From IMG/VR virus record IMGVR_UViG_3300031111_000007, positions 1 through 64,000 of that record: 64,000 nt of DNA, one strand, 5' to 3'. The notes below the pieces were generated by a model. The model was not told the DNA's origin and did not search any database. It saw only the letters and a list, made by a program, of their open reading frames with translations. The position numbers and the translations under genes were made by a program. The DNA comes from a virus (lineage: Duplodnaviria; Heunggongvirae; Uroviricota; Caudoviricetes). This document shows positions 53,435 through 64,000 of this stretch, piece by piece. The stretch's first letter is position 1; the number at the start of each line of letters is the position of its first letter.

Positions 53435-54826
53435 TTATGAAGATGATACTGAACTTGATGATGATGAATTAATACCAAACAATTCAATCTCACCAATTCT
53501 TATTTCATCACCACTTGGAGTCAATAATGCAGCACCACTTGTTATAGTATTTCTCAACTTGATCCATGATGCAGATACAGGTACACCAGCACTATTTGTC
53601 AAGGTAATTGAATAACCCCATTGTCCACCAAATTCATTAGATGTTTTCTGATGTAAGAATGGTGCTATATATGTTTGTTGTTCAGTCCAATTAACACCGT
53701 CTAATGATGTCCATAGTACAAATTTATCATTATCAATAACCCATCCTGTAGGTGTAACAAATGCAGCAGAAGTATTACCATAAACTTTTGCCTTAGTTAA
53801 TTCTTGTGCTGATCCTAATTCAACACCATATGAGTAAGTATTCAACCAAGATGCACTAACATTTGTATATCTAATAGAATCTACCAATAATGGTTCTTCT
53901 GTTGTCATTGCCCCGGTTGATGGTGAGCTATCCGGTTCAGATTTCCATCCCTTCAATTCTGTTATTCCAACACCAGCGGTAGAACTTGACGATACGCTAC
54001 TGCTACTTGAAGAACTACTTACCGATGATGATGAAGAAGAAGATGATGATGAGAAAGATAGACTACTACTGCTTGAACTTGAAGATACACTACTTGATGA
54101 TGAACTTGAAGATGAACTTAAGCTGATTGACATACTTACACTGGAAGAACTACTGCTGCTTGAGCTTGAAGATACGCTACTTGATGATATCGATTGAGAA
54201 GAACTTGACGATGATACAGAAGAACTTGAAGATGAAGATGATGAGGAATTCATACAAGTATACTCACCAGAATTCATTATAAAAGTGTTTATAAATGCTT
54301 CTGCCTTTGGTTTGTTTGTCCAATTCTGTAAATAAATTCTCAGTTCAACTTCATCTTTACCTATAGGACTGCCACTTGCAGCACCCATACCAGACCATGT
54401 ACCACCAGTATTTCTATAATAACTTTGCCATTGTTTTCCTACTCTCGTAATTCTGAATGCACCTGATGGTGAGTTATTACCAATAGCTGTTTGTAGTAAA
54501 GGATCACCTTCAATGTATACTCTTTCGATATATGTTGTGTCAGCACCAGATTGATAAATTTGAAGTTTATTATTATCATCACCAACATATCTTGCTTCAA
54601 AGAATATACCCCAACCACCAATTCCATTATTAGCAGAAGGAGAAATATCCCATGACATCTGGACATCAAAATCTCCACCCGAAATGATGGTTGCTCTATG
54701 TTGGACTAGAGAGACATTTTCACTATCATTAACCCTGAATATTAGCCTATCACTACCGCTAATAGCAGGGGTACTTGCTGCTCCCTCTATTCTATCCCAT
54801 CTATGTACATTTGGTAACTGACTCAT
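53435..54826 (-). CDS. receptor-binding/fibre protein with ~100-aa poly-Ser linker
   Basis: 463 aa; domain FRITRVGKQWQSYYRNTGGTWSGMG...IYLQNWTNKPKAE paralogous to 54836..57685; continuous SSSSSSSSSSVSSSSS... tract. Confidence 0.5.
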   Translation of the reverse strand: MSQLPNVHRWDRIEGAASTPAISGSDRLIFRVNDSENVSLVQHRATIISGGDFDVQMSWDISPSANNGIGGWGIFFEARYVGDDNNKLQIYQSGADTTYIERVYIEGDPLLQTAIGNNSPSGAFRITRVGKQWQSYYRNTGGTWSGMGAASGSPIGKDEVELRIYLQNWTNKPKAEAFINTFIMNSGEYTCMNSSSSSSSSSSVSSSSSSQSISSSSVSSSSSSSSSSSVSMSISLSSSSSSSSSSVSSSSSSSSLSFSSSSSSSSSSVSSSSSSSSVSSSSTAGVGITELKGWKSEPDSSPSTGAMTTEEPLLVDSIRYTNVSASWLNTYSYGVELGSAQELTKAKVYGNTSAAFVTPTGWVIDNDKFVLWTSLDGVNWTEQQTYIAPFLHQKTSNEFGGQWGYSITLTNSAGVPVSASWIKLRNTITSGAALLTPSGDEIRIGEIELFGINSSSSSSVSSS

Positions 54827-54835
54827 ATTAACTAT

Positions 54836-61694: not shown

Positions 61695-61730
61695 CTATTT
61701 CTCCATACTTCCTTACTTTATTTATATATT

Positions 61731-64000
61731 TTATACTCCACCCCAAGGCAAAAATCCACTTGGTGCTGGATATGTTTGTTGACTACTAATTAAACTTACA
61801 GTAACAGCATTTGTATTGGTATAAAGAGAAGCACCCGGAAAATATATTCCGCTTATTCCACTAAATCCTTCTCCTGATGGTACTACAGGATCACCATACC
61901 ATGATCCATTTTTACCCCACCATATCTTACCATTATCAAGATCAAGTGCTACTCCAATTGTATCACCAGCACCATATGCATCTCCATAATCAATACCAAC
62001 ACTATTTTTAGTTATTTTACCATTAAGAGCAAGCATAGAATAACTATCAATAGTTTGACCAAGATATTGTGAACCGAATGAAAAACCAGATGGAGCAATA
62101 CCAATTCTAATAAAATCTGATGCAGCTACATCAACATCCATTTCAAAATACCATTTACCGGAAGACCTATCCCAATAAGTCATTGTTGATTTCCATGAAG
62201 TATCATTTGCTGCTGCTGTTCTATCACTATTACTTAATGTAATACTTGCTGGTGTAGTAGTAGGATTAAATGCAAATGGGATTGATTCACTTGAACTTGA
62301 ATTTGATTCACTTGAACTTGAAGATTCAGAACTTGAGCTTGAGCTACAAGAATATTCCCATGAAAATTCTCGCATTGGTTCTTGTTGATTATAATCATCT
62401 TCACCAACTATTATTGTTCCCCCACTTGGATTAACTTCTATGGTAGTTGTTCCATCATAAGCAGTTAAATCTATAATATCACCTAAATAATTTCCACCAG
62501 CAGCCTGACTAAAATCAAAAGGAGTATTTAGTTTATAATACTGAACTACATTACCAGACTCACTCACCATATAAAAAGTAACACCATCATCTAATAAAAT
62601 TGCATCACTACAACCAAGACTACCACCCGATGCCCATAACCATAGTAAATTACCATCTGCCACAGCAGTAGAAACATCATATGGAGTACTAAGATTATAT
62701 TTATATCTTCCTACAACCATTATAGTACCACCATTATATAATCTAGCAGTAGTACCAACATCCGATACACTTTTACTTTCTTGGAATGTAACAGTATCAG
62801 TTATATCAAAAGGAGTATTTAATGTATATCTTCTAACTGTTCCTGTATCACTATCACAAATAAGTATCATTGTTCCATCATCAGTGAACCATACTCCGTT
62901 TGCTACACTTATTCCTGTATCCCAATCACCAACAGCACTCATTGTTGTTATATCATATGGTGTTCCTAACGCATACATATACACACGATCACTATATGAA
63001 CTACAAATGTATATATAATTTCCATCAGGAGACATATAGATACCACGTCTAGCATTACTAATAGGTGTTCCTATATTACTTGTTCTTATTAGTGTATATT
63101 GCCAATCACAATTAGAAGCACCAACACTTAAACTTGAACTTTTACTTGAGCTTGAACTTGAAAGAGAACTTGAGCTTGAGCTTGAAAGAGAACTTGAAGA
63201 TTCAGAACTTGAAGATTCAGAACTTGAGCTTATCGATGAAGATGAGGAAGAATTCAACTTCTCAATTCTATAATGAAAATATGCCTGTACATCATCTGGT
63301 TTATATAGACCACTACTTCTTGAGTAAATAATTAAATCATCATTGTAATTAAATAATCCCACTTCTTTGATGTCAACAGGATCGACATTATCAGGAACAA
63401 TAAAATCAATAAAGATAGTATTTGTATCATCTTCTATCTTGTAGAATGTTCCGCTTGCAACTGGTGATTCTAAATCATTTTCAATAGAAGGGTTCCAGAT
63501 TGTACTCGTACCTGTACCTACTTTCCAATAACCAAGAACATCAGCACATATACCAAGACCAAATTCATCACAAGTATATGGTGAGTAAATAACTCTATCT
63601 TTTGAAGTTTGAACAATATGAGCATAACCTCTACATACAAAATCCCAATATACTTTCAAAGTATTTTCATCAACATGAGTAATTCTTATTGGAAAAAATT
63701 CTTTATCATTAGCAGGACTAGGATCACGCCTATAAAACTGAGGAATAACAAATGAATTTAAGTTATGATTAATAGTCCATACTTGAGCAGGATCACTTTG
63801 ATAATGATAATAATCCGATCTTCTAATTAAACCTGTACCGCTTTGACTATAATCTGAACCATCACCTGTATCACTATCCCATGTTATTTCCAATCTATCA
63901 TCATTTGCCATATAATGTTCTTCTGGAAATATACGATATCCATTACTATCCCAATACATTCCTACAGGTCCGGGTTGTGAAGGATATCCAGAACCAGCAG
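61731..64000 (-). CDS. large fibre/structural protein with poly-Ser tracts (5' end may extend beyond window)
   Basis: ATG at 63959 but frame stays open to the window edge (…AGSGYPSQPGPVGMYWDSNGY); two Ser tracts. Confidence 0.45.
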   Translation of the reverse strand, partial: AGSGYPSQPGPVGMYWDSNGYRIFPEEHYMANDDRLEITWDSDTGDGSDYSQSGTGLIRRSDYYHYQSDPAQVWTINHNLNSFVIPQFYRRDPSPANDKEFFPIRITHVDENTLKVYWDFVCRGYAHIVQTSKDRVIYSPYTCDEFGLGICADVLGYWKVGTGTSTIWNPSIENDLESPVASGTFYKIEDDTNTIFIDFIVPDNVDPVDIKEVGLFNYNDDLIIYSRSSGLYKPDDVQAYFHYRIEKLNSSSSSSISSSSESSSSESSSSLSSSSSSSLSSSSSSKSSSLSVGASNCDWQYTLIRTSNIGTPISNARRGIYMSPDGNYIYICSSYSDRVYMYALGTPYDITTMSAVGDWDTGISVANGVWFTDDGTMILICDSDTGTVRRYTLNTPFDITDTVTFQESKSVSDVGTTARLYNGGTIMVVGRYKYNLSTPYDVSTAVADGNLLWLWASGGSLGCSDAILLDDGVTFYMVSESGNVVQYYKLNTPFDFSQAAGGNYLGDIIDLTAYDGTTTIEVNPSGGTIIVGEDDYNQQEPMREFSWEYSCSSSSSSESSSSSESNSSSSESIPFAFNPTTTPASITLSNSDRTAAANDTSWKSTMTYWDRSSGKWYFEMDVDVAASDFIRIGIAPSGFSFGSQYLGQTIDSYSMLALNGKITKNSVGIDYGDAYGAGDTIGVALDLDNGKIWWGKNGSWYGDPVVPSGEGFSGISGIYFPGASLYTNTNAVTVSLISSQQTYPAPSGFLPWGGV

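What the first reader, a model, noticed from the sequence alone, without database searches (positions are those of the whole stretch)
53435..64000. Extraordinary poly-serine tracts in five late fibre/receptor-binding proteins: candidate O-glycosylation acceptor sites
Genes 53435..54826, 54836..57685, 57709..58806, 59619..61694 and 61731..64000 each contain uninterrupted Ser-rich tracts of roughly 60-150 residues (SSSSSSSSVSSSSS...) inserted between folded domains. The folded domains include a repeated carboxypeptidase-regulatory-like N-domain and a paralogous lectin/jelly-roll-like domain. An early protein (10256..10942) also has a Ser run. The architecture mirrors bacterial serine-rich-repeat adhesins, which are heavily O-glycosylated by dedicated GT operons. 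A 14 kb GT/sulfo-sugar island lies 7 kb upstream on the same strand. That suggests the phage builds glycan-coated, mucin-like fibres.
Basis: partly seen in the sequence, partly recalled or inferred. Interest (0 to 1): 0.7.

Follow-up and report, generated by a model that had tools for sequence, protein, structure and literature searches.

The report
Poly-serine tethers in phage tail proteins
Five late tail/baseplate proteins of an uncultured T4-like phage string sugar-binding-type domains together with very long, nearly pure serine stretches, which most likely act as flexible spacers and domain-swap points; nothing found here shows that they carry sugars.

Summary
Five minus-strand genes (53435-64000) encode proteins with 27-184-residue tracts that are 79-87% Ser. 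All six Ser codons are used, and 40 of the window's 41 Ser runs of six or more lie in this region. The genes are late baseplate-peripheral/fibre genes of a deep-branching, uncultured T4-like phage. Evidence: T4-type late promoter motifs, gp25/gp6 synteny in relatives, and PHROG tail hits. The tracts sit at the junctions, and some termini, of independently shuffled modules: a ConA-like jelly roll, discoidin, SPRY, a beta-propeller and a prealbumin-like module. They are conserved in position across relatives down to about 50% gp55 identity. Their length changes by in-frame indels, and distal modules are swapped exactly at them. The best reading is a phage counterpart of bacterial polyserine linkers, acting as flexible tethers and exchange junctions. 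The 14 kb island of sugar-modifying genes is real and co-occurs in the close clade. Its glycosyltransferases are generic, though. The block is missing at the same genomic position in one Ser-rich relative. The cassette also occurs in other phages next to DNA-metabolism genes. Glycosylation therefore remains a minority hypothesis (about 0.25), and membership of the serine-rich-repeat adhesin family fails. Long poly-Ser tracts also occur in tail-distal proteins of unrelated uncultured phages.

The parts
61731..64000 (-). C-terminal 755 aa of a large baseplate-attached protein whose gene runs off the window. It has a conserved trunk, a Ser tract (63126-63251, 42 aa), an SGL-like beta-propeller, a second Ser tract (62283-62363, 27 aa) and a SPRY domain.
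   Evidence: There is no stop codon upstream to the window end. The homolog in relative L001 is 1383 aa and follows gp25 and gp6 baseplate genes. It is 52% identical up to HYRIE[KA]LN, immediately before the Ser tract, and unrelated after it. Pfam gives SPRY at 41.5 bits and a weak SGL hit.
59619..61694 (-). g59619 (691 aa): SPRY, then a discoidin (F5/8C)-like domain, then a Ser tract (60432-60572, 47 aa), then a copy of the g58806-type module.
   Evidence: Pfam gives SPRY at 41 bits and F5/8C at 26 bits, just below its cutoff. Residues 423-679 are 30% identical to the whole of g58806. TATAAATA lies at 61719-61726, 25 nt upstream of the start.
58806..59597 (-). g58806 (263 aa): a conserved module without Ser tracts. 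It has an N-terminal prealbumin-like beta-sandwich, two helices and a C-terminal beta-sandwich. It is the probable baseplate-docking unit and is repeated in g59619 and g57709.
   Evidence: It has 69 homolog clusters, all from metagenomes. The AF2 model has pLDDT 80-92 for residues 1-100. It gives weak Foldseek matches to cyanophage Pan3/Pam1 tail-complex chains. A late promoter motif lies at 59607-59614.
57709..58806 (-). g57709 (365 aa): the g58806-type N-domain, a Ser tract (58156-58365, 70 aa) and a discoidin-like C-domain.
   Evidence: Paralogy is shown. The C-domain hits PHROG 17517 'tail protein' (E 1.9e-12). In relatives L003 and L004 the homolog ends inside the Ser tract and lacks the C-domain.
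54836..57685 (-). g54836 (949 aa): an N-terminal Ser tail (57635-57676), a 170-aa domain, a 184-aa Ser tract (56570-57121), a ConA-like domain, Ser tracts of 101 aa (55574-55876) and 38 aa (55430-55543), and a C-terminal domain.
   Evidence: Tracts are listed. The ConA-like domain is 41% identical to g53435 residues 2-192. The long tract lies between the conserved anchors E.RFI and C[YF][VI].P[ND]D. Its homolog measures 110-230 aa in five relatives matched by those anchors, and 156-234 aa in L003, L004 and L006 by position. A late promoter motif lies at 57691-57698.
53435..54826 (-). g53435 (463 aa): a ConA-like jelly roll, an 89-aa Ser tract (53981-54247), a discoidin-like domain and a 10-aa C-terminal Ser tail (53438-53467).
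   Evidence: The AF2 model of residues 1-200 has pTM 0.74. It gives 187 PDB matches with E<1e-3 to lectins, GH16 and PL7 enzymes, CBM66 and the phage J-1 Dit CBM2. The C-domain is paralogous to the g59619 discoidin-like domain. In L001 the homolog continues past the Ser tail into a further domain.
53400..53416 (-). Two tandem T4-type late promoter motifs (TATAAATA) upstream of the small gene 52983-53381. They are members of the set of late motifs at 61719-61726, 59607-59614 and 57691-57698.
   Evidence: The phage encodes a gp55-type late sigma factor at 51829-52302.
32253..46484 (-). Island of soluble sugar-modifying enzymes: GT4-type GTs at 44044-45231 and 41542-42681, a CgeB-like GT at 42678-43625, SDR epimerase/dehydratases, sulfotransferases and methyltransferases. 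This is context only; a functional link to the Ser tracts is unproven.
   Evidence: Pfam hits are. No transmembrane proteins were found. The block is conserved in close relatives. It is absent at the syntenic site in L044. The cassette occurs elsewhere beside DNA-metabolism genes.

Best explanation
The five genes encode late-expressed, baseplate-peripheral adhesin/fibre proteins of an uncultured, deep-branching T4-like phage. Each protein is a string of small beta-rich modules. Most of these have carbohydrate-binding-type folds: a ConA-like jelly roll, discoidin, SPRY and a beta-propeller. One recurring prealbumin-like module probably docks the protein to the baseplate.

The poly-Ser tracts are long, hydrophilic, low-complexity spacers between these modules. 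They are the phage counterpart of the polyserine linkers that join carbohydrate-binding modules in Saccharophagus and Cellvibrio enzymes. They let several weak sugar-binding heads reach and sample the host surface around the baseplate (inferred).

At the DNA level the tracts are degenerate in-frame repeats. They expand and contract by slippage. They also provide microhomology at which distal modules are exchanged, split or fused. This gives the lineage a fast way to change receptor-binding modules; the outcome is shown, the mechanism is inferred.

Whether the serines are also modified is not known.
For: Late structural role:
- TATAAATA lies 5-25 nt upstream of four genes in the cluster (three of them Ser-tract genes), and the phage encodes a gp55 late sigma factor.
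- In four relatives the cluster directly follows gp25 and gp6 baseplate genes.
- PHROG tail hits are found.
- The g58806 model weakly matches cyanophage tail-complex chains.

Linker position:
- Every tract separates segments that are independently homologous to segments of other proteins.
- The flanking folds are lectin-like.

Selection on Ser as an amino acid:
- All six Ser codons are used.
- The tracts are confined to this module of the genome.

Conservation:
- Tracts sit at the same positions in L003, L004 and L006.
- They also occur in gp55-anchored loci down to about 50% gp55 identity.
- The long tract between conserved anchors is always 110-234 aa.

Length dynamics:
- In-frame tandem duplications of 15-42 nt occur, some 100% identical.
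- Two near-identical assemblies differ by 2 mismatches in 20.8 kb but by three in-frame indels, all in Ser tracts.

Exchange junction:
- Homology of g61731 with its L001 counterpart stops exactly at the tract.
- Homologs are split, truncated or fused at tracts.
- Tracts of different genes share 25-84-nt stretches at 80-96% identity.

Precedent from the literature:
- Polyserine linkers separate CBMs in bacterial CAZymes (PMC2386152).
- Ser/Thr-rich low-complexity regions associate with polysaccharide-binding proteins (PMC6821194).
- A Cellvibrio polyserine linker works in an E. coli-made enzyme (PMC10598543).

Generality:
- Unrelated uncultured phages carry 80-990-aa poly-Ser tracts in large proteins.
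- Two of these proteins follow a tape-measure or tape-measure-sized ORF (one also has a Phage_min_tail domain), and one carries a ConA-like domain.
Against: - Flexibility and disorder of the tracts were not measured or modelled.
- The tracts contain almost no Pro, Gly or Ala (0, 2 and 4 of 2432 tract residues). These are one-step neighbours of Ser codons and would be tolerated in a purely entropic linker.
- The interrupting residues are L, V, I, F, E and K. Ser runs are strongly even-numbered: 216 even against 60 odd. A plain spacer does not explain such extra constraints.
- N- and C-terminal Ser tails (g54836, g53435 and relatives) link nothing, although some look like remnants of lost or split modules.
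- Sugar binding by the modules is inferred from fold only.
Confidence: 0.6

Rival explanations
1. The Ser tracts are acceptor sites for dense O-glycosylation, possibly with methylated or sulfated sugars, carried out in the cytoplasm by the phage's own GT/sulfotransferase island. The result would be mucin-like, glycan-coated fibres.
For: - The island exists and encodes only soluble enzymes. It has no flippase, polymerase or other multi-pass membrane protein, so its acceptor is cytoplasmic.
- The GT block is present in every close relative with Ser tracts that could be scored: the window, L001/L003, L004, L006, L014, L016, L029 and L093.
- GT44044 belongs to GT4, the family of the SRRP glycosyltransferase GtfA, and GtfA is among its weak PDB hits.
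- The tract composition resembles SRR regions: Ser plus V/I/L/E, with no Pro or Gly, and XSXS stretches (the comparison is from memory).
- Terminal Ser tails cannot be linkers.
- Virion glycosylation by phage GTs is known in mycobacteriophages (Freeman 2023, cited in PMC12619734).
Against: - The co-occurrence is confined to one clade, so it is not phylogenetically independent.
- L044 has a 1118-aa protein that is 27% Ser. In it the w45219 homolog is followed directly by the w36362 homolog, so the GT block is absent there. No GT was detected in the 17.7 kb held, by similarity to the window's GTs or by Pfam on ten unassigned ORFs.
- Homologous SDR-GT-GT cassettes lie in other phage contigs next to primase, RNR, RecA and radical-SAM genes, with no Ser tracts within 10 kb.
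- The window island is flanked by a dUTPase gene and a divergent thymidylate-synthase-family gene. That fits DNA hypermodification as well.
- No late-promoter motif precedes any island gene.
- The GT hits are generic, with no GtfA DUF1975 and no OGT or TPR-GT architecture.
- Unrelated phages with long Ser tracts show no homologs of these GTs in the DNA held.
Confidence: 0.25
2. The tracts are not disordered. Periodic hydrophobic interrupters in a Pro/Gly-free Ser matrix fold into a thin regular beta-type shaft, probably in an oligomer. The tracts would then be the fibre itself rather than a tether.
For: - Pro and Gly are absent, and L, V, I and F are favoured as interrupters.
- Ser-run lengths are non-random and mostly even, giving odd repeat periods of 5, 7, 9 and 11 residues.
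- The long tract is always longer than 100 aa.
- A sister clade without Ser tracts uses other repetitive fibre-like sequences at the equivalent place: His/Thr-rich and Gly-rich repeats in L099.
Against: - The interrupters differ between tracts and between phages (E-, K-, L- and Y-types). This pattern looks like local duplication rather than a conserved structural repeat.
- Tract length varies about two-fold, and even between near-identical genomes.
- No structural evidence exists. The few Ser residues included in the AF2 model had pLDDT below 50.
Confidence: 0.1
3. The tracts are functionally neutral by-products of runaway in-frame repeat expansion, tolerated only because they fall between domains.
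For: Recent perfect tandem duplications occur, and length is polymorphic.
Against: - Positions are conserved across relatives down to about 50% gp55 identity.
- Synonymous codon diversity shows long-term maintenance of Ser.
- There is strong exclusion of Pro and Gly.
- The tracts are restricted to tail proteins, both here and in unrelated phages.
Confidence: 0.04

Closest known systems
Polyserine linkers (PSL) of bacterial carbohydrate-active enzymes (Saccharophagus degradans, Cellvibrio japonicus, Teredinibacter turnerae; Howard et al. 2004, as cited in PMC2386152 and PMC10598543)
   Same: Both are near-homopolymeric Ser runs placed between independently folding modules, many of which are carbohydrate-binding. 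Both are regarded as flexible spacers. In bacteria, Ser-rich low-complexity regions are statistically tied to polysaccharide-binding proteins (PMC6821194).
   Different: Here the proteins are cytoplasmically assembled virion proteins of a phage, not secreted enzymes, and no catalytic glycoside hydrolase domain was detected. The tracts reach 184 aa in the window and 230-990 aa in other phages, whereas the Cellvibrio linker used in PMC10598543 is 34 aa. Some tracts are terminal tails.
Serine-rich repeat glycoproteins of Gram-positive bacteria (GspB, Fap1, SraP) with GtfA/GtfB and the accessory Sec system
   Same: Both are adhesins with very Ser-rich regions flanking a binding domain. Both show Ser interspersed with V, I, L and E, with no Pro or Gly. 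GT4-family glycosyltransferases are encoded in the same genome.
   Different: There is no SRRP signal peptide, no LPxTG anchor and no SecA2/SecY2. There is no GtfA-type DUF1975 and no GtfB. The tracts are long Ser homopolymer runs rather than strict SX dipeptide repeats. No evidence of glycosylation exists.
CBM-decorated baseplates of Lactobacillus and lactococcal phages ('evolved' Dit, e.g. phage J-1 Dit CBM2, PDB 5ly8)
   Same: Extra carbohydrate-binding jelly-roll modules are appended to baseplate proteins to bind host surface polysaccharide. The 5ly8 structure is among the top structural matches of the g53435 N-domain.
   Different: Those modules are insertions in a siphovirus Dit, joined by short linkers. 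Here several separate proteins of a T4-like baseplate carry the modules on very long poly-Ser tethers.
Mycobacteriophage virion glycosylation (Freeman et al. 2023, as summarised in PMC12619734)
   Same: Phage-encoded glycosyltransferases, and the idea that virion proteins are their target.
   Different: There the glycans are on the C-termini of capsid and tail-tube subunits and were shown experimentally. Here the targets would be fibre Ser tracts, and nothing has been shown.
T4 baseplate periphery (gp7, gp10, gp11, gp12)
   Same: The genomic position is the same, after gp25 and gp6. Expression is late, from TATAAATA promoters via gp55. The role is peripheral attachment.
   Different: No detectable sequence similarity to gp7-gp12. 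T4 fibres are rigid trimeric beta-structures without low-complexity tethers.

Membership tests
Polyserine linker (PSL)-type interdomain spacer | A near-homopolymeric Ser run lying between two independently folding or homologous modules | tested here: met
   Tracts of 27-184 aa that are 70-87% Ser. The flanking segments have separate paralogs or homologs.
Polyserine linker (PSL)-type interdomain spacer | Occurs in proteins with carbohydrate-binding or carbohydrate-processing modules | tested here: met
   ConA-like jelly roll; F5/8C and SPRY. This rests on fold only; binding was not tested.
Polyserine linker (PSL)-type interdomain spacer | Flexible, disordered conformation | not testable with these tools
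   Only 8 tract residues were modelled, at pLDDT below 50. The Pro/Gly exclusion and even run lengths leave this open.
Serine-rich repeat glycoprotein (SRRP) adhesins | Long atypical N-terminal signal peptide (KxYKxGKxW) and a C-terminal LPxTG anchor | tested here: not met
   Neither motif occurs in any of the six proteins.
Serine-rich repeat glycoprotein (SRRP) adhesins | Dedicated GtfA/GtfB pair (GT4 with DUF1975) and an accessory SecA2/SecY2 locus | tested here: not met
   Pfam finds only the generic Glycos_transf_1 C-domain. The PDB hits to GtfA cover about 70-85 C-terminal residues only, and the stronger of the two scores like the hits to unrelated GT4 enzymes. No Sec genes were seen.
Serine-rich repeat glycoprotein (SRRP) adhesins | O-glycosylated Ser-rich repeats | not testable with these tools
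   This needs mass spectrometry or glycan staining.
T4-like (gp55-dependent) late baseplate/fibre module | Late promoter TATAAATA upstream, and a gp55 late sigma factor in the genome | tested here: met
   The motif lies 5-25 nt upstream of g59619, g58806, g54836 and 52983-53381. gp55 is at 51829-52302.
T4-like (gp55-dependent) late baseplate/fibre module | Synteny with baseplate wedge genes | tested here: met
   gp25 (PF04965) and a gp6-like gene lie directly upstream of the cluster in L002, L003 and L004. The window itself ends before that point.
T4-like (gp55-dependent) late baseplate/fibre module | Sequence or structural homology to T4 gp7-gp12 | tested here: not met
   No Pfam, PHROG or PDB hit to these proteins.
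Phage-encoded virion protein glycosylation system | GT genes co-inherited with the acceptor proteins across relatives | tested here: inconclusive
   Both are present together in one clade. The GT block is absent at the syntenic site in the Ser-rich relative L044. The cassette is present in phages without nearby Ser tracts.

The most novel reading that the evidence does not exclude
The phage uses its own soluble island of glycosyltransferases, sulfotransferases and methyltransferases to coat the poly-Ser tracts of its baseplate proteins with sulfated or methylated O-glycans in the host cytoplasm. That would give a myovirus mucin-like glycoprotein tentacles. It would be a bacterial-virus analogue of SRRP adhesins and of giant-virus glycosylated fibrils.
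Probability: 0.2. Interest if true: 0.85.

Novelty: new variant of a known kind. Interest (0 to 1): 0.55.

Why it matters
Phage receptor-binding machinery is usually pictured as rigid trimeric fibres and spikes. Here a whole lineage of T4-like phages builds its baseplate periphery from lectin-type heads on serine tethers 100-250 residues long. At least two unrelated siphovirus-type tail modules show poly-Ser tracts of about 150-240 residues in tail-distal proteins.

These are longer than any low-complexity region found in a survey of 102 phage proteomes, where the maximum was 115 aa (PMC6821194). I found no paper describing poly-Ser in phage tail proteins.

If the tethers are flexible, they imply a multivalent 'fishing' mode of host-glycan capture. 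They also imply a built-in junction for swapping receptor-binding modules, which bears on host-range evolution and on engineering modular phage adhesins.

If the tethers are also glycosylated, that would be a new type of virion modification in phages of Gram-negative-type (T4-like) architecture.

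Tried and rejected
- Megablast of the fibre region against GenBank phages found nothing. tblastn of g58806 and of the CgeB-like GT also found nothing. The nearest cultured phages share only 25-30% identity in UvsX and gp46/47.
- PDB sequence searches of the three GTs gave only generic GT4 hits or none. The acceptor type could not be inferred.
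- Two extra ORFs lie inside the fibre cluster of relative L001: one of 213 aa, and one of 397 aa with N-terminal TPRs. I suspected from memory that they were GT-like. Pfam, NCBIfam and PDB confirm only the TPRs, and the ORFs are unique to that genome. The idea was dropped.
- The sigma-70 promoter and terminator scan of the island was no better than shuffled sequence.
- Codon-class alternation (TCN/AGY) was rejected as the cause of the even Ser-run lengths.
- Searching the 5.8-billion-protein set with the two g53435 domains returned only 5 fragments.
- Looking up the window's own g58806 and g59619 proteins, to read beyond the window end, found no record.
- The gp55 scan of GTDB genomes hit contigs binned in archaeal and Clostridia MAGs. 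This is probably mis-binning and was not used for host assignment.
- A degenerate poly-Ser DNA pattern could not be scanned. A specific 21-mer was used instead.
- Howard 2004 and Freeman 2023 are not in the held library. They are cited only through the papers that cite them.

Full report
**1. The observation**

Six adjacent minus-strand ORFs fill 53435-64000. Five of them contain Ser-rich tracts:
- g53435 (463 aa): 89 aa, plus a 10-aa C-terminal tail.
- g54836 (949 aa): a 14-aa N-terminal tail, then 184, 101 and 38 aa.
- g57709 (365 aa): 70 aa.
- g59619 (691 aa): 47 aa.
- g61731: 42 and 27 aa.

The sixth ORF, g58806 (263 aa), has no tract. The tracts are 79-87% Ser (70% for the shortest). The five proteins together are 22.8% Ser.

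The ORF at 61731 has no stop codon upstream as far as the window end.

Forty of the 41 Ser runs of six or more found in any frame of the 64 kb lie in this 10.6 kb region. The exception is the 9-Ser run in 10256-10942, which is trivial.

All six Ser codons are mixed: TCA 170, AGT 158, TCT 99, AGC 52, TCG 30, TCC 14. TCN and AGY codons do not alternate. What is maintained is therefore serine as an amino acid, not a DNA repeat.

On top of this, Tandem Repeats Finder shows many local in-frame duplications of 15-42 nt. Some are 100% identical, which means recent slippage.

**2. What the genes are**

The window comes from an uncultured phage with a T4-type core:
- a fused gp47/gp46 SbcCD-like nuclease at 48634-51816;
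- a gp55 late sigma factor at 51829-52302;
- UvsX at 47114-48241;
- 16 tRNA genes.

There is no nucleotide match in GenBank phages. Protein identity to any cultured phage is only 25-30%.

The T4 late-promoter octamer TATAAATA lies 5-25 nt upstream of g59619, g58806, g54836, 52983-53381 and uvsX. One-mismatch versions lie before g53435 and 52349-52648.

Relatives were recovered from metagenomes: L001/L002/L003, L004 and L006. In L001-L004 the same cluster directly follows gp25 and a gp6-like baseplate gene. The homolog of g61731 there is a 1383-aa protein sitting in the gp7 position.

PHROG 'tail protein' and 'tail fiber' families hit g57709 and g61731. An AlphaFold model of g58806 has an N-terminal prealbumin/carboxypeptidase-regulatory-type beta-sandwich with pLDDT 80-92. 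It gives weak Foldseek matches to chains of the cyanophage Pan3 and Pam1 tail complexes. No similarity to T4 gp7-gp12 was found.

I conclude that these are late, baseplate-peripheral fibre or adhesin proteins. The promoter motifs, the synteny and the family hits are tool results. Virion incorporation is inferred.

**3. Anatomy of the proteins**

An all-against-all BLAST with low-complexity masking shows that the segments between tracts are independent modules reused in different orders:
- A ConA-like module: g53435 residues 2-192 and g54836 residues 409-602 are 41% identical.
- A discoidin-like module: g53435 288-453 matches g59619 209-371. The g57709 C-terminus matches by PHROG.
- SPRY: g59619 4-199 matches g61731 562-736. 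Pfam scores are 41 bits.
- The g58806 module: the whole protein matches g59619 423-679, and g57709 9-98 is a further copy of its N-terminal domain (matched to g59619 425-515).

The model of the g53435 N-domain (pTM 0.74) is a ConA-like lectin/glucanase jelly roll. It has 187 PDB matches at E<1e-3. These include legume lectins, GH16 and PL7 enzymes, CBM66 and the CBM2 of the phage J-1 'evolved Dit'.

**4. Conservation and dynamics of the tracts**

Every relative with the g58806 family has poly-Ser tracts at the same places. Examples are the N-terminal 'MA(G/S)S13' tail and the long tract after residue ~170 of the g54836-type protein, which is 156-234 aa.

In gp55-anchored loci from JGI metagenomes and IMG/VR, the pattern is as follows:
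- Tracts are present in all loci with at least 60% gp55 identity that include enough upstream DNA: L014, L016, L017, L026, L029, L035 and L093.
- Tracts are present in some loci at 47-54% identity: L042, L044 and L049.
- Tracts are absent from others at 48-59% identity, even though several of those keep a g58806 homolog.

The long tract sits between the conserved anchors 'E.RFI' and 'C[YF][VI].P[ND]D'. It measures 110-230 aa in six genomes.

Two near-identical assemblies (L002 and L003) differ by only 2 mismatches in 20.8 kb. They also differ by three in-frame indels of 6, 42 and 75 nt, all inside Ser tracts. This is either real polymorphism or repeat collapse during assembly; I cannot tell which.

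Homology between g61731 and its L001 counterpart is 52% up to 'HYRIE[KA]LN'. It ends exactly at the Ser tract. Downstream, an SGL-like propeller plus SPRY is replaced by an RCC1 propeller.

Elsewhere, homologs stop inside a tract (the g57709 homologs in L003 and L004). Others continue through what is a terminal tail in the window (the g53435 homolog in L001). Others again are fused into chains of 1275-2331 aa (L004, L006).

Tracts of different genes share 25-84-nt stretches at 80-96% identity.

The tracts therefore mark, and plausibly promote, module exchange. The outcome is shown. The recombination mechanism is inferred.

**5. Fine composition, which remains unexplained**

I examined 2432 tract residues from four phages. 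The interrupting residues are L, V, I, F, E and K, with Y and N in L004 and T and Q in L006.

Pro occurs 0 times, Gly 2 times and Ala 4 times. Yet these residues make up roughly 3-10% of the folded parts, and all are single-step neighbours of Ser codons. TCN to CCN and AGY to GGY are transitions.

Ser runs between interrupters are strongly even-numbered: 216 even against 60 odd.

A purely entropic linker should tolerate Pro and Gly. Some additional constraint is therefore acting, whether on structure, on modification or on resistance to proteolysis. This is the main reason I do not put the plain-linker reading above 0.6.

**6. The glycosyltransferase island**

The region 32253-46484 encodes the following:
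- GT4-type GTs at 44044-45231 and 41542-42681;
- a CgeB-like GT at 42678-43625 (PF13524);
- two SDR epimerase/dehydratases;
- two sulfotransferases;
- three SAM methyltransferases;
- several ORFs of unknown function.

None of these has more than one marginal hydrophobic segment. There is no flippase or polymerase, so the acceptor is cytoplasmic.

The GT block is conserved at the same position in L001 (61-76% identity). Homologs of the CgeB-like GT lie on the long contigs that carry g58806 homologs: 160, 240, 191 and 45 kb. It is also present in L014, L016, L029 and L093.

Five observations weigh against a specific link:

1. L044 has a 1118-aa fibre protein that is 27% Ser. There the w45219 homolog is followed directly by the w36362 homolog, which is the same arrangement as in the Ser-free L099. 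The 8.5-kb GT block is therefore absent at that site. No GT was detected in the 17.7 kb held, by similarity to the window's GTs or by Pfam on ten unassigned ORFs.

2. The CgeB-like GT has more than 220 homolog clusters at 53% identity or more, far more than the 69 of the g58806 family. SDR-GT-GT cassettes at 47-59% identity (with more distant copies in further contigs) lie in other viral contigs with no Ser tracts within 10 kb. In two large phage contigs they sit next to primase, ribonucleotide reductase, RecA and radical-SAM genes.

3. The window island is flanked by a dUTPase gene and by a divergent thymidylate-synthase-family gene. That is a typical setting for DNA hypermodification.

4. 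No island gene has the late-promoter motif. This is weak evidence, because read-through from the uvsX late promoter is possible.

5. The GTs are generic. The GtfA hits cover only about 70-85 C-terminal residues, and the stronger of the two scores like the hits to MshA or PglA. The other two GTs have no hit or only a marginal one. No DUF1975 or OGT-type architecture was found.

The defining features of SRRPs are absent: the signal peptide, LPxTG, and GtfA/B plus SecA2/Y2. Polyserine linkers function without glycans in an E. coli-produced enzyme (PMC10598543).

I rate glycosylation of the tracts at about 0.25. It is not excluded, and it is supported by the composition puzzle and the terminal tails. 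It is not what the genomic evidence favours.

**7. Wider occurrence**

A 21-nt poly-Ser probe hit 32 IMG/VR contigs. At least ten of them are unrelated to the window at the protein level and carry long poly-Ser tracts in large proteins:
- L133: a 2223-aa protein with tracts of 96, 386, 155 and 122 aa.
- L146: a 990-aa tract.
- L160: a 1775-aa protein with tracts of 209, 151 and 242 aa, directly after a tape-measure gene.
- L142/L157: a 200-aa tract plus a Phage_min_tail domain, following a 1625-aa ORF of tape-measure size and two ~300-aa ORFs.
- L162: a 176-aa tract plus a ConA-like Laminin_G_3 domain.

None of these loci contains homologs of the window's GTs.

Poly-Ser spacers in tail-distal or lectin-bearing proteins are thus a recurrent design in low-GC uncultured phages.

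In a survey of 102 phage proteomes, the largest low-complexity region was 115 aa, and phage low-complexity regions were rich in Ala, Gly and Pro rather than Ser (PMC6821194). Full-text searches found no paper describing poly-Ser tracts in phage tail proteins.

**8. Verdict**

The best explanation (0.6) has three parts. The tracts are polyserine-linker-type tethers. They join lectin-like heads to a docking module in late baseplate-peripheral proteins. They also act as fast-evolving junctions for module exchange.

The architecture and the island are real, SRRP membership fails, and the glycosylation link is unproven and partly contradicted.

The feature is a new variant of a known kind: the polyserine linker, previously described in secreted bacterial CAZymes, here in phage tail machinery and at extreme length. 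It is moderately interesting in itself. It would be highly interesting if the tracts prove to be glycosylated or sulfated.

Noticed in passing
window 30463-31266 (-) and 46702-47130 (-), flanking the island 32253-46484: The GT/sulfotransferase island is bracketed by a divergent thymidylate-synthase-family protein and a dUTPase gene. Only the C-terminal half of the former matches TS, at E about 1e-7, and it also weakly matches CMP hydroxymethylase. Homologous GT cassettes in other phages sit beside primase, RNR, RecA and radical-SAM genes (L127, L128). The island may serve DNA hypermodification rather than protein or glycan synthesis.
   Followed up: partly
L044:4226-5203 (+); similar-sized ORF at the same position L049:5394-6404: In the more distant Ser-tract relative L044, a radical-SAM enzyme gene lies between the Ser-rich fibre gene and gp55 (Pfam E 4e-14). 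L049 has a 336-aa ORF at the same position that was not tested. L044 lacks the GT block at the syntenic site. The window has no homolog. A radical-SAM enzyme next to poly-Ser proteins could be a different Ser-modifying activity.
   Followed up: no
L001:7211-7852 and L001:7875-9068 (+): Two ORFs are inserted within the fibre gene cluster of one relative only. One is 213 aa with no hits. The other is 397 aa with N-terminal TPRs and an unassigned C-domain of about 270 aa. I suspected a TPR-glycosyltransferase but could not confirm it.
   Followed up: partly
Ser tracts of the window (53435-64000) and of L003, L004 and L006: Ser runs between interrupting residues are mostly even-numbered (216 even against 60 odd). 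Pro, Gly and Ala are almost absent, although they are one mutation away from Ser codons. This is unexplained.
   Followed up: partly
L146:7725-13538 (-), L133:3866-10534 (+), L160:2534-7858 (+), L142:11224-13284 (+), L162:379-3624 (-): Unrelated IMG/VR contigs encode proteins with poly-Ser tracts of 176-990 aa. One follows a tape-measure gene and another a tape-measure-sized ORF (the latter also has a Phage_min_tail domain); a third carries a ConA-like domain. The phenomenon extends well beyond this lineage.
   Followed up: partly
window 52320-52339 (-) and 36700-36719 (-): A 20-nt hairpin-like element, AAAAAGWRGGTTAYCTTTTT, occurs exactly twice. One copy is just upstream of gp55 and the other just upstream of ORF 36362-36682. 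About 0.16 copies are expected by chance. It is a possible terminator or regulatory site.
   Followed up: no
L099:7643-9568 (+): A Ser-free sister phage has, at the equivalent place in the cluster, a fibre protein with His/Thr-rich (HTGPSHTHT) and Gly-rich (GNTGxSG) repeats. Different low-complexity solutions are used in the same module.
   Followed up: no
window 7126-13753 (-) and 24262-24347 (+): There are 16 tRNA genes, 15 of them in one minus-strand array, with a TATAAATA motif at 13865-13872 just upstream of that array. No tRNA-Ser is among them, despite the heavy Ser demand of the fibre genes.
   Followed up: no
L129, L130 (genome contigs): Contigs carrying close gp55 homologs are binned in MAGs labelled Woesearchaeota and Thermoplasmata. 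This is probably compositional mis-binning of phage contigs and gives no host evidence.
   Followed up: no
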